A stretch of DNA of 64,000 bases from Octopus sinensis (lineage: Eukaryota). This document shows, in pieces, positions 2,524 through 49,274 of the stretch. Positions within the stretch are counted from its first letter, which is position 1. Each line of letters begins with the position of its first letter. A model generated the notes under the pieces. It made no database searches. It saw nothing but the letters and a program-made list of their open reading frames with translations, and had not been told where the DNA came from. The position numbers and the translations under genes are program-made. The stretch lies in the NCBI RefSeq assembly GCF_006345805.1, contig NC_043017.1, positions 18,414,001 to 18,478,000 of the forward strand, given 5' to 3'.

Positions 2524-2581
2524 CTTGAAATCTAAATTGGCTTCACTCATGTTTGGTGTCTCAATAAACTGCATCGTGAAT
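2524..2581 (-). CDS. NABP2: SOSS-B/NABP coding exon 4
   Basis: TTCCAG|A TTC ACG ATG CAG TTT ATT GAG ACA CCA AAC ATG AGT GAA...AAG|GTACTT = (E)FTMQFIETPNMSEANLDFK, resembling the NABP motif EFCMVYSEVPNFSEPN. Confidence 0.85.
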
Positions 2582-3545
2582 CTGGAAAGGAGAAAAATGA
2601 AACAGAACAAAACAAGAAACATTAGATATAAAATGGCAGCCAAAGAATACAAGGAAGAAAAACAACAGATTACAGAAATAGCCCTCCACCCTGATTGCTC
2701 CCATCCACTCTAATGTGCATAACCATGCAACCTCTCAACAGCAAGAAACCTGTTCTGTTTGGGCCCTTTCACTTTAACCTCTCATTTCCAAGCAAAGTGC
2801 CACATCCCTCTCTACTGTAACCCCACTTAGGGTTTCAAAAAGGCACCCCATACAATCTGTATTGTTGGTATTAGAAAGGGCATCCAGCTGTAGAAAGCAT
2901 GCCAAAAGAGACATTGGGGCCTGATGCAACTCCGTAGCTCATTGGATCCCGTCAAACTAACTCATACCAGCACAGAAAATGGATGTGAAAAGATGACCCC
3001 ACACACACAATCTCCTTTAAAAACATGTACACATATTTGCTTCAAGCAAACAGACAGGAACATATTGGAGAACAATGAGAACAGAACCAATTCTAACATT
3101 ATAAAATTGGTTTCTGTTGTCATAGTGAGGACTTGTTGCTGTGGTGATTAATGATGGTGGTTCAAGTGAGTTGTCCAACTTGCTACCCAAAGAAAAAAAA
3201 AAGAGTACGTTTGATGATGTACAAAAGAGAAATAAACAACAGCATTACCACAGCTGGAAAGCAACGATCGCAGATCTCTTTTGCCACCACACAATCTCCT
3301 AAAAATAGCAACCAAAAAATCCCTAAATCCCATCTTGTCTTCAAAAAATAAAAAGGTAAGATGGGATGGTCATGGGGCTAACCATACATAATCTCTACCA
3401 AGGTTAAATAACAGAAACATCAAATATTGTTATGCTAATCCTTCATCTGACATTGAGCTGTCTTCAAACTGTGTGTGGGGGGTTATCAATGAGGCAAACC
3501 CCACCATTAGACATACAGTGCAACAACAACAACCACATTACTTAC

Positions 3546-3617
3546 TCTCCCATTTTGGTGATTTCACCATTCTTGCCAGTATACAGTGTCAAACATCCTT
3601 TCCAAAGTGAGGAATAA
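3546..3617 (-). CDS. NABP2: SOSS-B/NABP coding exon 3
   Basis: TATAG|T TAT TCC...GGA GA|GTAAGT = (G)[23 protein letters not shown](E), the conserved OB-fold KGCLTLYTG motif. Confidence 0.9.
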
Positions 3618-4412
3618 CTATAAAGAAACAACAAATGAAATAGATTTATTTTAACCAATCAACAAGGGTTCCACACACACACACACACATTGACACTCCA
3701 GTCTGATGAGGGAAGGAAGACTGCTGTGAGTGCAGCTGTATTCTGTCTCTAAATGCAAGAGTCGATGCCTCATCAGGGAGTGAAATAGCTGTAAGGTTTC
3801 CAGCCTTCTCTACTGCAACATCAAAACTGCCCAAAGCCACTTGCTGATGTCAGTTAAACTCCCTTACACAACAGCACACCTTAAAACAGAAAAATAGAGC
3901 TGCAATACTACTGTTGCTGTTTATTCTTAAGTTTAACCCTTTTGTTAGCACATTTCTGTTGAAATATGCAGACTTTGTTTCAATTAATTGTAAAAATTGA
4001 AAATTTAAACTGATCTAGTCCCTCCTCTTAGGCTGTAGTTTGGAACATAAACATGAAATTTTAATTTAGATAATTCTTAATTCTAAAACAAGTTAATATC
4101 ATCTGAACAGCATTAGGCTGAGGTGGTTTGGCATTAAAAGTGTTCAACATGAAAAATTTAATAGAAGCAGTATCTGGTGAGTTGTATTGAAAAGAAAAAG
4201 AGCATCTAAGACAACACGGCCTCACTAAATATGCCTAAAAAATTGGGATGGTCATGGCTGGAATGCAGTTGACTAGGGTTGACTTTAAGCTAAGCAACAA
4301 CATGGCTGTTTGGTTAAAACGTTTTTCTATCAAGTCACTGAGTTTAATCACATCATAGAGCTCCTGGTGGCTCTGGTCAACACAAACTGTAAATGTAACT
4401 GGCCGTTTTCCA

Positions 4413-4566
4413 TGTACCCTCAGCTCTCATAATCTACGTCACAGGCTCCCTCTCAGTGACAGCCACTATCACACACTCACACACACATACATAAATGCAT
4501 ACACACATTTATACAGCAGCTGTTCACTGAGTGAACCTCAAGTCAGGTTTCTCATCATTGGGTACA
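4413..4566 (-). ncRNA. Box C/D guide RNA (scaRNA-like, SNORD97/SCARNA97-like), copy 1; predicted guide for Cm34 of elongator tRNA-Met
   Basis: Minus strand: terminal stem TGTACCC/GGGTACA, box C ATGATGA, box D CTGA preceded by AGATTATGAGAG, internal hairpin with GU-repeat apex; intronic and sense to the SOSS-B host. Confidence 0.85.
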
Positions 4567-5378
4567 AGAAATATTCTACATCAAGTTACAATTGTACTGA
4601 CCAAGTGTTTCTTCTAACCACACAGAATACAAGCATTCAACCACATGGTTTCAGGTTCCTTTTTACTGCATGGCACCTTGGGCAAGTGTCTCCTACTGTA
4701 GCCCCAAATCAACCAAACCATTATGAGTGGATTTGCTAAATGGAAACTGGAAGTCCACCACAATTTTTTATATATATATATGCTTAAAAATTACCTTTGA
4801 ATTGCTGGGTGTCAAGCCAGTCTCTTGCAACCACAAGTTTCATCTATAGGTATAAAGGATCTGCAGGCAATTTATGATTGAAGGTAATGAATCTCATACA
4901 CACCCGAACATACATATACACTTGTATAACCTTTGAAATTAACATACCTGAAATTGCCCCTGGTTTTAAAGCGATCTAAATTCAAACTACCCATTAAAAT
5001 TTCATGTCATGTCCAAAACAAGTTTAATAATGACAGATATTTTACTAAATTACTCTTTTTTTTTCTTCAAAATAATTCAAAGTCTGGGTATTTTAACAGA
5101 AATACAGGAACAAAATGGTTTCACCCTTTAGCATTGAAATTCCTCAGTTAAAAATATTGCCTATTTATTCAAATTGTGTTTAGCTAATCATGCATTTAGT
5201 AGCTTTGAGATTTCAGTGATGTAAAAGTTTATTTTGAAAATGACATTGTAGGGTAAGTGTGAGAGGCTGGACATAGCTAAAGAGTTAAGAGAATGCAACC
5301 CTCACTCAAGATTACATCCAGTCTCTCTCTGCTTGTAAAGACACCCCACCATGAGTGTTAAAACATGCAAGTTTTCTA

Positions 5379-5532
5379 TGTACCCTCAGCTCTCATAATC
5401 TGTGTCATTGGCTCCCTCTCAGTAGCAGCCACTATCACACACTCACACGTACAGCCTCACACACACACACACATATATACAGCAGCTATCCACTGAGTGA
5501 ACCTCAAGTTCTGTTTCTCATCATTGGGTACA
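5379..5532 (-). ncRNA. Box C/D guide RNA (SNORD97/SCARNA97-like), copy 2
   Basis: Same boxes, stem and guide (CAGATTATGAGAG-CTGA); most diverged copy, with compensatory changes in the internal stem. Confidence 0.83.
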
Positions 5533-6417
5533 TGAAACTACAATATTTGTCCCACCCCAACCTTAAAGCAACATATCTACCCTTATTACAGTAATACAAG
5601 CCAACCTCGAGGTTGTGAAAATAGCAGCTGCATGTCCCCCACAGAAATTGTAGTGCCATACAAGTCAGGATGGTCATGGCTGGAACGCCTTTAAAAAGGT
5701 CTTGTCAACCTATTTGATCTGCGGCTACAATATGGTAGTATGGTTAAGAAATTCAATTTGCTATGACTAGAACAACAGAACTGTCATCGTAAGTTACCTC
5801 CCTTGTCTGTTAATTCAAGCCATGTGAGTTAACAAAACTAAATGGAAACTGTGTGGAAGCCTGTCAGACTGCTTCTGTTCTCGTGTACCATTAATGCTGT
5901 ACATCCTGCTGGAAGACTTCATAACCACTGCTTGGTTTTCAGATATCAATCTTTTCTTCCATTAATCATAGCTGCTACTCGTCTCCTGTCGAGAACTACT
6001 ATAAGTATATCCACGCATGGGCCCGGTGGTTAAGCTCGCTTCGTAACCCCATGGTTTCCGGTTCAGCCCTCCTGTGCAGCATCTCAAGCGTCTTCTTTCG
6101 CCCTAGCCATAACCCAATAACTTGAGTGAATTTGGTAGATGGAAACTGCATAGAAGCGCATCGTGTTTATATTACGTATCTCTATTTGTCTCCACCACCA
6201 TTGGTTTGTTTACATTCCCTTTACTGGTTTGGCAAAATAGATTAATAGAATAAGGACGGGACTTGCCAAATTGTTTTAGTGGAATATTTTAAGATATTTT
6301 GTGTACTACTTAACCTCATGACGTCCCCTTCAGGAATTTCACATTCCTAACCATAACACCAAGGGGTCGTACCTAGACATTAGCCAGGGTGTGGAAGGAG
6401 TTTTGTATTTTTTTCAA

Positions 6418-6571
6418 TGTACCCTCAGCTCTCATAATCTGCGTCACAGGCTCCCTCTCAGTAACAGTCACTATCACACACTCGCACATACATAAATGCA
6501 TTCACTCACACATTTATACAGCAGCTGTTCACTGAGTGAACCTCAAGTCAGGTTTCTCATCATTGGGTACA
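6418..6571 (-). ncRNA. Box C/D guide RNA (SNORD97/SCARNA97-like), copy 3
   Basis: Same boxes, stem and guide; 12-nt complement to TCTCATAATCTG. Confidence 0.85.
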
Positions 6572-7010
6572 AGGAATATTCTACAAAAAGTTACAAATGT
6601 ACTGACGAAAGCAGTTATTTGTTCTACCCCTACAACGGTATTCACTTTTATAGCACGTGCTTACATCCTAATTCTGCTCGATAAAAAGTACCACAGAACA
6701 AAGTAACAGCTAAATCGGCGATCATTCGGTATTGTCTCCAGATTGCCGATATGAGACATCAATTAATTTCTTTTTCAGCCTAGTCTATTTGTCTAGGTCT
6801 TGTGTGGGTACGCATACACACACAATACCCAGGACACTAGTTCTGAGGTGCTATGCAAACACAACCAAAGTAGAAAAAAAAATGTGGTAAAGGGAGGGAA
6901 CTCTAGCGACTTAGGTTGACCCCCCCCCCGCTCCCTCCTCAATAATTATAAAGGGGCCAAGTACACCCTTCAGGAAAGGTTACGATCACTTAGTCCTTGA
7001 TTGGTACCTA

Positions 7011-7496
<486 letters not shown>

Positions 7497-43568: not shown

Positions 43569-43728
43569 CGCAGGAGTGGCTGTGTGGTAAGTAGCTTGTT
43601 TACCAGCCACATGGTTCCGGGTTCAGTCCCACTGTGTGGCACCTTGGGCAAGTGTCTTCTGCTATAGCCCCGGGCCGACCAATGCCTTGTGAGTGGATTT
43701 AGTAGACGGAAACTGAAAGAAGCCTGTC

Positions 43729-48037: not shown

Positions 48038-48753
48038 CTGCAAAGATAGACGGATACAATGAGACTGAGTTGGATCCAGGTGGGTGCCTACGTGTGTTAC
48101 TGGCGTGAAGAATGTTTTGTCTTGAGCAGAAAGTTGTTCACTCTTGGGGTGAGGTGGGGGGAGGCCAGTTTTTGCCAACGGAAACAGGTGCACTGGTTCT
48201 GTTTAAACTTCTTCTAATTATTAATAGACAATGAATTAACTAATTGACCAAACTATTGTTTAACTAATAATTTGATCAATCAAGCAGTTGGTTGACTAAT
48301 AATAATAATAATAATAATAATAATGATAATAATAATAATAATCAAATGAAGTGAATTAGAACCAGTGTTTCTGTTTTTACTGGCAAAATGACCCTCCCAA
48401 GAAACAAGAGACAAACACAACATATGTATAAATGTGCAGGCTTGGCTGTGTAGTAAGAAGCTTGCTTCCCAACCACATAGTTCAAAGTTCAGTCCCACTG
48501 CTTGGCACCTTGGACATGTACCTTCTATTATAGCCTCAGGTCAACCAAAGCCTTCGCTGAAAGTTGTTTGCTATGGCTGGTCAGAGAGTGACCACTGGTT
48601 TCACACTTACCTGATTAAAGGTGCAAAACCAATGGTAATTCTGACCAACCATAACAAACAACTTTCTAAATATGTGTGTGTGTGTGTGTGTTTGTGCATG
48701 TGAGTTGGTGTGTGTGTGTATGAGTACTTGTTGGTGTGTGTGTGTGTGTGTGT

Positions 48754-49204
48754 GTGTCTCCCTTGCCACCACTTGACAACTGATGTTGCTAGGTTTAAGT
48801 CCCCGTAACTTAGCAGTTCAGCCAAAGAGACTGATAGAATAAGTACCCGGCTTAAAAATGAATAAGTACAGGAGTCAACCTGTTCAATTAAAATTCTTCA
48901 AGGCACTGCCACAGCATGGCAGCAGTCTAATGGATGAAACGAGGTAAAAAATTAAAGACGTGGTTGTGTGTGTGTGTGTGTGTGTGGTGTGTGTGTGTCT
49001 CCCTTGCCACCACTTGACAACTGATGTTGCTAGGTTTAAGTCCCCGTAACTTAGCAGTTCAGCCAAAGAGACTGATAGAATAAGTACCCGGCTTAAAAAT
49101 GAATAAGTACAGGAGTCAACCTGTTCAATTAAAATTCTTCAAGGCACTGCCACAGCATGGCAGCAGTCTAATGGATGAAACGAGGTAAAAAATTAAAGAC
49201 GTGG

Positions 49205-49206
<2 letters not shown>
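48754..49206 (+). repeat. Tandem duplication of a 241-bp-period SINE 3' half
   Basis: Apparently identical units at about 48754-48965 and 48995-49206, separated by (TG)n. Confidence 0.8.

Positions 49207-49274
<68 letters not shown>

What the first reader, a model, noticed from the sequence alone, without database searches (positions are those of the whole stretch)
4440..4540. GU-repeat-capped internal hairpin with covariation, suggesting Cajal-body scaRNA-type localisation
Seen: between putative D' (TTGA) and C' (GTGAC/ATGAC) each copy folds GGTTC..CTCAGTGA ACAGCTGCTGT / ATAGTGGCTGT CACTGAG..GAGCC around a (GT)n-rich apex. Copy 2 has CTCAGTGG/CTACTGAG (A-U to G-C compensation plus a wobble) and copy 3 has TTACTGAG (wobble), so pairing is kept while sequence changes. 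Knowledge: vertebrate C/D scaRNAs use G.U/U.G wobble stems or GU repeats as the Cajal-body localisation signal (WDR79/TCAB1-associated). Inference: these (CA)n stretches are functional RNA elements rather than ordinary microsatellites, and all three copies resemble SCARNA97 more than nucleolar SNORD97.
Basis: partly seen in the sequence, partly recalled or inferred. Interest (0 to 1): 0.7.

Follow-up and report, generated by a model that had tools for sequence, protein, structure and literature searches.

The report
tRNA-methylation guide RNAs with GU loop

Summary
The hairpin is real. It lies inside three 152-nt box C/D RNA genes (minus strand) in one intron of a SOSS-B/NABP gene. Their D-box guide pairs with this genome's elongator tRNA-Met and faces C34, so they are SNORD97/SCARNA97-family homologues. 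The 23-bp stem beats shuffles (z -5.1, -4.0, -2.5). The 43-nt apex is GU-rich (genomic background 0.2-1.5%) and keeps its length through offsetting indels, yet a wobble stem is predicted in only one copy. The SCARNA97 comparison is wrong: SCARNA97 lacks GU repeats and uses a pyrimidine tract; GU signals belong to vertebrate U-snRNA guides. Among 20 homologue clusters from metagenomes, 10 have pyrimidine-rich interiors, 1 is GU-rich, 9 neither. Side finding: 39 of 40 complete tRNA-Met genes carry an intron starting AUC, which preserves the guide duplex on pre-tRNA. Verdict: new member of a known family with an unusual loop; Cajal-body signal possible (about 30%), untested.

The parts
4414..4565 (-). 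Copy 1, 152-nt box C/D RNA of the SNORD97/SCARNA97 family (terminal stem GUACCC/GGGUAC)
   Evidence: Rfam SNORD97 19.8 bits, below the gathering score of 45
4552..4558 (-). Box C (AUGAUGA), identical in all three copies
4538..4541 (-). Putative box D' (UUGA); the 10 nt before it differ at 3 positions in copy 2, so no conserved D' guide
4444..4537 (-). Internal hairpin of copy 1: 23-bp stem (5+8+10 pairs) between D' and C'
4470..4512 (-). 43-nt GU-rich apex of copy 1 (copy 2: 5436-5478; copy 3: 6475-6517), same length in all copies
4436..4442 (-). Putative box C' (GUGACGU; degenerate, varies between copies)
4425..4436 (-). D-box guide, complementary to elongator tRNA-Met positions 31-42; the G at 4428 (D+5) faces C34
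4420..4423 (-). Box D (CUGA)
5380..5531 (-). Copy 2 (most diverged; hairpin 5410-5503; double change at 5490/5425; longest pure GU run, 16 nt)
6419..6570 (-). Copy 3 (hairpin 6449-6542; C.A mismatch at 6524/6468; weakest GU content)
3618..7119 (-). Host intron (3502 nt, GT..AG on the minus strand) holding all three copies in sense
   Evidence: joint 3617-7120 in contigs of runs X6 and X7
7120..7255 (-). Upstream exon of the host gene, SOSS-B / NABP single-stranded DNA-binding protein
   Evidence: SOSS complex subunit B1 chains, E 2e-18
3546..3617 (-). Downstream exon of the host gene
   Evidence: joints 2581-3546 and 3617-7120

Best explanation
These are three intron-encoded box C/D RNAs whose D-box guide is complementary to this genome's elongator tRNA-Met and is predicted to direct 2'-O-methylation of wobble C34, and whose internal stem likely brings D' and C' together while presenting a fixed-length GU-rich loop that likely binds a UG-reading protein such as TDP-43. 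Shown by sequence: boxes, terminal stem, guide complementarity, one-intron location, stable stem, GU-rich 43-nt apex. Inferred: release from the host intron, assembly with fibrillarin/Nop56/Nop58/15.5K, methylation of C34 (probably already on the intron-containing pre-tRNA, whose intron starts AUC and so keeps a 10-bp duplex), and a protein-binding role of the apex. Whether that binding sends the RNA to Cajal bodies is open (about 0.3). Confidence in the guide identity alone is about 0.9; the figure given is for the whole statement including a functional apex.
For: Guide pairs 12 bp with spliced and 10 bp with unspliced tRNA-Met from this genome, D+5 on C34 in 3 of 3 copies. Boxes C, D and terminal stem invariant. 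Rfam aligns all three end to end to SNORD97 and to ceN56, identical over the guide. Only three full-length matches in the genome (3 of 11 hits; the other 8 cover the apex only). All in one sense intron. Stem z -5.1/-4.0/-2.5, strand-specific. Apex length 43/43/43 although gapped alignments show offsetting indels (+4/-4 for copies 1 and 3; -6/+6 for 1 and 2); apex GU content rare in the background. TDP-43 N-terminal domain present (best E 2e-31) and a coilin-like match over the cut-off (E 1e-8, with a stop inside). In human cells six UG repeats on an apical hairpin suffice for Cajal-body targeting and alternating A:U pairs also work (PMC4041459); TDP-43 binds such UG motifs directly (PMC6412121). 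39 of 39 tRNA-Met introns begin AUC (33 of 33 distinct; the A was part of the search pattern, the UC was not; position 4 varies).
Against: Rfam scores are far below gathering (19.8-20.8 vs 45 bits). No evidence of expression or methylation was obtained. Only three paralogues, two of them recent duplicates, so no independent covariation; one stem pair breaks. The apex is the most variable part (8-12 of 43 positions ungapped vs 3-11 of the other 109). A terminal R.U/U.R stem with wobbles appears in 39.5%, 1.7% and 1.8% of sampled folds; only copy 2 has six or more pure UG units. 9 of 20 homologue clusters have no low-complexity interior and only 1 of 20 is GU-rich. Nucleolar SNORD97 also has a pyrimidine-rich interior (PMC6601510 supplement legends), so a low-complexity apex does not imply Cajal bodies. 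The genome is rich in simple repeats.
Confidence: 0.5

Rival explanations
1. Same tRNA-Met guide, but the apex is a tolerated microsatellite that grew in the loop of a purely structural D'-C' stem; the RNA is nucleolar or nucleoplasmic and the GU tract does nothing specific.
For: Simple repeats are everywhere here (97 tandem-repeat rows in 64 kb); 8 of 11 genome hits to the RNA are apex-only matches to unrelated GT tracts; apex is the fastest-changing part; no shared fold of the apex; an enclosing stem near D'/C' is common in the family whatever the interior (11 of 21 representatives beat shuffles at p<=0.05); G/U richness is structurally tolerated in a hairpin (inference); the GU signal is described for vertebrates only and Drosophila uses another.
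Against: Length fixed at 43 nt through offsetting indels, unlike free slippage; both ends of the apex are nearly invariant; background for this GU content is 0.2-1.5% per strand; it sits exactly where human C/D scaRNAs carry their signal.
Confidence: 0.38
2. One reading: the copies are SCARNA97-like because of their GU repeats.
For: Same guide as SCARNA97, long insert between D' and C'.
Against: SCARNA97 lacks GU repeats and needs a pyrimidine tract; invertebrates were reported to have one common SNORD97/SCARNA97 gene, the split being a vertebrate duplication (PMC6601510). The copies hold 15-16 pyrimidines per 30 nt at best and are 152 nt against 216 for SCARNA97 and 142 for the SNORD97 model. 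Host gene is neither LARP4 nor EIF4G2.
Confidence: 0.04
3. One or more copies are decaying duplicates (copy 3 the likeliest), so differences between copies reflect drift, not selection on structure.
For: Three C/D RNAs in one intron, 0.8-2.8 kb from the 3' splice site, is unusual for exonucleolytic release (recalled); copy 3 has the broken pair, weakest fold and fewest GU steps.
Against: Boxes, terminal stem and core guide are identical in all three; copies 1 and 3 differ at 3 of 109 non-apex positions while homology ends within about 10 nt downstream; each copy can form an extended external stem (-15 to -17 kcal/mol).
Confidence: 0.08

Closest known systems
SNORD97 / SCARNA97 (SNORD133) family, guides of tRNA-Met(CAT) Cm34 (Rfam RF01291; PMC6601510)
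   Same: Terminal CCC/GGG stem, box C, guide AGAUUAUGAGA one base before box D, D+5 on C34, intronic sense location, long insert between D' and C'.
   Different: GU-rich rather than pyrimidine-rich interior; host SOSS-B/NABP rather than EIF4G2 or LARP4; three copies in one intron; target genes carry an intron; D' guide not conserved; Rfam score below gathering.
GU/UG-type vertebrate C/D scaRNAs: mgU2-47 (scaRNA28), U90 (scaRNA7), scaRNA9, scaRNA2 (PMC4041459, PMC6412121)
   Same: 20-40 nt GU/AU-dinucleotide-rich tract topping a long apical hairpin in an intronic C/D RNA.
   Different: Those guide U1/U2 snRNA, not tRNA; known from vertebrates; a terminal wobble stem is predicted here for copy 1 only; weak Rfam hits to sno_ZL1 and SCARNA7 are not specific.
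Caenorhabditis ceN56 (Rfam RF01643)
   Same: Same ends, box C and guide AGAUUAUGAGAG: apparently the nematode member of the family.
   Different: 125 nt, D box AUGA in the model; interior not compared (not shown in the alignment).
Plant and archaeal tRNA-Met guides acting on intron-containing pre-tRNA (PMC10576143, passages)
   Same: Target tRNA-Met has an anticodon-loop intron that takes part in the guide duplex.
   Different: Here seen in an animal genome; human, fly and other animal tRNA-Met genes in PMC6601510 Fig. S4 are shown without introns.

Membership tests
Box C/D guide RNA | Box C (RUGAUGA), box D (CUGA), terminal stem | tested here: met
   AUGAUGA, CUGA and a 6-bp stem, identical in 3 of 3 copies
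Box C/D guide RNA | Intronic, sense to a host gene | tested here: met
Box C/D guide RNA | Accumulates as a mature RNA bound to fibrillarin/Nop56/Nop58/15.5K | not testable with these tools
   only assembled contigs of runs were available
SNORD97/SCARNA97 family | D-box guide complementary to the elongator tRNA-Met anticodon arm with D+5 on C34 | tested here: met
   12 bp spliced, 10 bp unspliced, C34 in 3 of 3
SNORD97/SCARNA97 family | Rfam RF01291 gathering score (45 bits) | tested here: not met
   19.8-20.8 bits; other clear homologues also fall short, 28.9-34.4 bits for 4 of 20 loci scanned, so the model does not reach divergent members
SNORD97/SCARNA97 family | Guides Cm34 in vivo | not testable with these tools
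   needs modification mapping
SCARNA97 (SNORD133) proper | Long pyrimidine-rich internal tract as Cajal-body signal | tested here: not met
   15-16 pyrimidines per best 30 nt; definition from PMC6601510
SCARNA97 (SNORD133) proper | LARP4 intron host | tested here: not met
   host is SOSS-B/NABP
GU/UG-type C/D scaRNA | 20-40 nt GU/AU-dinucleotide-rich tract at the top of a long apical hairpin | tested here: met
   28-34 of 42 steps are R-U or U-R
GU/UG-type C/D scaRNA | Terminal (R.U/U.R)n wobble stem, or at least six UG repeats | tested here: inconclusive
   10-11 bp stems can be drawn in all copies but are sampled at 39.5%, 1.7%, 1.8%; pure runs of 5, 8 and 3 units; no human control was folded
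GU/UG-type C/D scaRNA | Guides an Sm-class U snRNA | tested here: not met
   the conserved guide is for tRNA-Met
GU/UG-type C/D scaRNA | Cajal-body localisation, TDP-43 or WDR79 binding dependent on the tract | not testable with these tools
   TDP-43 N domain and a coilin-like match exist in the genome; WDR79 was not searched

The most novel reading that the evidence does not exclude
A cephalopod-type genome has put a TDP-43/WDR79-readable GU signal on its only tRNA-Met C34 guide, at the place where vertebrate SCARNA97 and many other homologues carry a pyrimidine tract. The GU Cajal-body code would then work outside vertebrates and outside snRNA guides, be interchangeable in evolution with the pyrimidine code, and bring the guide to intron-containing pre-tRNA-Met whose intron start (AUC) has been fixed to keep the duplex.
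Probability: 0.3. Interest if true: 0.6.

Novelty: new member of a known kind. Interest (0 to 1): 0.36.

Why it matters
[quoted passage not shown] A lineage with one guide family, a GU-type loop and an intron-bearing target offers a clean test: the intron marks the pre-tRNA stage, and the three natural loop variants (5, 8 and 3 pure UG units) straddle the published 4-6 repeat threshold. If the loop is only filler, this is an ordinary annotation of a conserved snoRNA that Rfam misses.

Tried and rejected
Rfam at gathering threshold: 0 matches in the window. Weak hits to sno_ZL1 (20.5 bits) and SCARNA7 (16.6, 10.7 bits) were rejected as evidence: plain microsatellites in an unrelated locus of this genome scored 23.3 and 20.1 bits. 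Search for this genome's own U-snRNA guides, to see whether they carry GU loops: two Rfam family searches gave no answer; guide-plus-CUGA patterns for U2-47 (9 matches), U1-70 (38, 30 examined), U2-20 (2; pattern one position off the intended G19), U2-61 (16), U2-19 (6), U2-25 (55, 30 examined) and U2-40 (12) gave no convincing C/D RNA with a terminal stem: inconclusive. Orthologues: no genome relatives are held; sequencing runs found were near-identical to the window and their contigs break at the repeat, so no extra covariation. Expression: no RNA holder listed on record; contigs of runs guessed to be RNA overlap the copies but run into the intron and cannot show ends or levels. D' guide: not conserved between copies, only a bulged pairing to tRNA-Met. 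Intronless tRNA-Met pattern: 0 matches, which led to the intron. Metagenome homologues: a first loose filter (49 of 95 matches) counted a (GUGC)n-bearing group of 5 loci (L054 group) as GU-rich; it failed the stricter stem-plus-C-box filter (42 of 95) and its repeat probably lies upstream of the RNA, so it was dropped, as was a pyrimidine-rich pair (L099, L121). No homologue locus showed the host exon by tblastn (0 of 95; flanks only 400 nt). Earlier scan notes: nothing by sequence or words.

Full report
What is there. The finding lies inside the first of three similar stretches spaced 966 and 1039 nt apart. Read on the minus strand each is a 152-nt box C/D RNA: 4414-4565, 5380-5531, 6419-6570. 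They align without gaps, with an identical terminal stem, box C (AUGAUGA), D' (UUGA) and box D (CUGA). Spliced contigs from two runs join 3617 to 7120, so all three lie in one 3502-nt intron, in sense. The upstream exon matches SOSS complex subunit B1 at E 2e-18. A DNA search of the 2.7-Gb genome gave 11 matches: the three copies in full and 8 that cover only the GT-rich apex. The animal is taken to be a cephalopod from its repeat landscape (recalled) and from earlier scan notes; this was not tested.

Family and target. Rfam finds nothing at its gathering scores. At relaxed threshold all three copies align end to end with SNORD97 (19.8-20.8 bits, cut-off 45) and with nematode ceN56, identical over the guide AGAUUAUGAGA. 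The genome holds 51 matches to the 5' half of elongator tRNA-Met, against 0 for the reversed control. With one such gene the guide forms 12 contiguous pairs on spliced tRNA and 10 on pre-tRNA, and the fifth base before box D faces C34 in 3 of 3 copies. This is the reaction shown for human SNORD97 and SCARNA97 (PMC6601510; seen: parts 1-2 of 4 of the text and the supplement text, not its image alignments). That paper already reports one common SNORD97/SCARNA97 gene in insects, plants and a tunicate.

The hairpin. The 94-nt region between D' and C' folds at -37.4, -35.6 and -28.4 kcal/mol, z -5.07, -4.01, -2.50 against 200 dinucleotide shuffles; the plus strand gives -19.8, -10.3, -14.7. Of 23 stem pairs 19 never vary. 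Five random substitutions give at most one break plus a double change with probability 0.11, 0.037 or 0.018 as the transition share is 1.0, 0.67 or 0.5; all five seen are transitions. So the stem is real by energy and strand, and covariation is only suggestive. A stem closing the region inside D' and C' is a common trait of the family: 11 of 21 outside representatives beat shuffles at p<=0.05.

The apex. It is 43 nt in every copy, with 24, 27 and 19 GU/UG steps of 42 and longest pure runs of 10, 16 and 7 nt. Such content is uncommon though not rare: 1847 of 126902 strand positions in the rest of the window reach 19 steps (1.5%), 0.5% reach 24 and 0.2% reach 27; 23 unrelated loci give 1.3%, 0.4%, 0.2%. 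The three copies share one ancestor, so this is a single event, chosen after the fact. For function: gapped alignments show insertions and deletions that cancel (+4/-4 between copies 1 and 3, -6/+6 between 1 and 2), and both ends of the apex are nearly invariant. Against: it is the most variable part of the RNA, its predicted fold differs between copies, and a terminal R.U/U.R stem with wobbles appears in 39.5%, 1.7% and 1.8% of 1000 sampled folds, although 10-11 bp stems of that type can be drawn in all three (no human control folded).

Comparison with the known signals. The GU/UG element was defined on mgU2-47 and U90; four UG repeats partly and six fully restore Cajal-body targeting, alternating A:U pairs also work, and position relative to the C/D core matters (PMC4041459; seen: abstract, Introduction, two Results sections, Discussion). 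TDP-43 binds the UG motifs of scaRNA2, 7, 9 and 28 and keeps them out of the nucleolus (PMC6412121; passages). SCARNA97, however, 'lacks GU repeats' and depends on a 93-nt pyrimidine-rich tract, and nucleolar SNORD97 also has a pyrimidine-rich interior. Drosophila C/D scaRNAs use a different box. scaRNA activity is not confined to Cajal bodies (PMC6298559; abstract only). The genome encodes TDP-43 N-terminal domains (3 matches over cut-off) and a coilin-like stretch; WDR79 was not searched.

Homologues. A metagenome scan for guide plus box D plus GGG gave 95 loci; 42 have a terminal stem and box C and fall into 20 clusters. In the best 30-nt window 10 clusters are pyrimidine-rich (24 or more of 30), 1 is GU-rich (15 steps; also pyrimidine-rich) and 9 are neither; the three copies score 19, 21, 15 GU steps and 15-16 pyrimidines (dropped rows are listed under Tried and rejected). 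Flanks of 9 of the 20 clusters hit Pfam families of varied host genes, some weakly. So a stem-capped low-complexity apex is frequent in the family, usually of the SCARNA97 type, but dispensable, and the GU version is rare. The organisms behind these contigs are unknown. Two unplaced contigs of the own assembly carry a different homologue with an AU-rich apex (L031, L032).

The target's intron. Of the 51 tRNA-Met matches, 39 have a 15-22 nt intron after A37 and an intact 3' exon start, 1 has no intron and a mismatched stem, and 11 have no recognisable 3' exon start. All 39 introns (33 distinct) begin AUC, repeating the first three bases of exon 2; the A was in the search pattern, the UC was not, and position 4 varies. 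The GAG near the 3' end (32 of 33) fits the usual anticodon-intron pairing (recalled). The fixed AUC is what keeps the 10-bp guide duplex on pre-tRNA, which suggests methylation before splicing (inference; an origin of the intron by local duplication is an alternative). Plants and archaea are reported to do this (PMC10576143; passages). PMC4536317 (passages) showed no Met intron among the passages seen.

Novelty. Searches on SNORD97/SNORD133 and invertebrates, GU or UG scaRNA signals, cephalopod snoRNAs, mollusc tRNA introns and ceN56 listed no paper on a cephalopod member, on a GU-type loop on a tRNA guide, or on a GU signal outside vertebrates; only listings were seen for most, and the library lacks most subscription papers. 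Supplementary alignments held as images could bear on this. Verdict: a new member of a known guide family, with a real hairpin and an unusual loop. Guide identity about 0.9; a functional apex about 0.5; a Cajal-body signal in this animal about 0.3. Interest 0.36.

Noticed in passing
G000 tRNA-Met genes, e.g. L043, L048-L051, L148-L155: Elongator tRNA-Met genes carry 15-22 nt anticodon-loop introns that all begin AUC (39 of 39; 33 distinct) and nearly all have GAG at -5 to -3, while the middle varies freely; AUC keeps the snoRNA duplex on the unspliced tRNA.
   Followed up: partly
L031:1380-1525 and L032 (unplaced contigs C8594, C9889); 3' fragments in L030, L034, L035: A second, dissimilar SNORD97-type RNA with the same guide, an 11-bp inner stem and an AU-rich apex. 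With intronless tRNA-Met genes of another type on unplaced contigs (L037-L040) and a divergent TDP-43 hit (L178), this suggests a co-assembled second organism (inference, not tested).
   Followed up: partly
metagenome loci L058, L077, L081, L096, L097, L102, L112, L114, L141, L082: Ten clusters of SNORD97-family RNAs with SCARNA97-like pyrimidine tracts on a stem; three lie beside exons weakly matching CCT or RPL28 rather than LARP4/EIF4G2, so the pyrimidine element may be older or wider than vertebrates.
   Followed up: partly
window 3618-7119: Three C/D RNAs in a single intron, 0.8, 1.8 and 2.8 kb from the 3' splice site, each with an extended external stem; release would likely need a cut between copies or hidden splice sites.
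   Followed up: no
L256 and L233, around position 1500: C-box-like sequence directly followed by an antisense stretch to U2 G25 (L256) or G19 (L233) and CUGA, as for a D' guide; no matching D box or terminal stem found and no GU tract inside.
   Followed up: partly
L082:57-145: A second C/D RNA (SNORD121A-like, 37.7 bits) about 250 nt downstream of a SNORD97-family RNA.
   Followed up: no
L176, L177 (C17): Two TDP-43 N-terminal domain matches 29 kb apart on the same strand: a tandem duplicate or an assembly duplication.
   Followed up: no
window 48734-49240: A 241-nt unit repeated 2.1 times at 99% identity between GT tracts: recent duplication or assembly artefact.
   Followed up: no
window 4624-4749 and copies at 43590, 48456, 53112, 62221, 63830: A short dispersed repeat begins about 60 nt upstream of copy 1; very high contig depth there shows it is abundant in the genome.
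   Followed up: no
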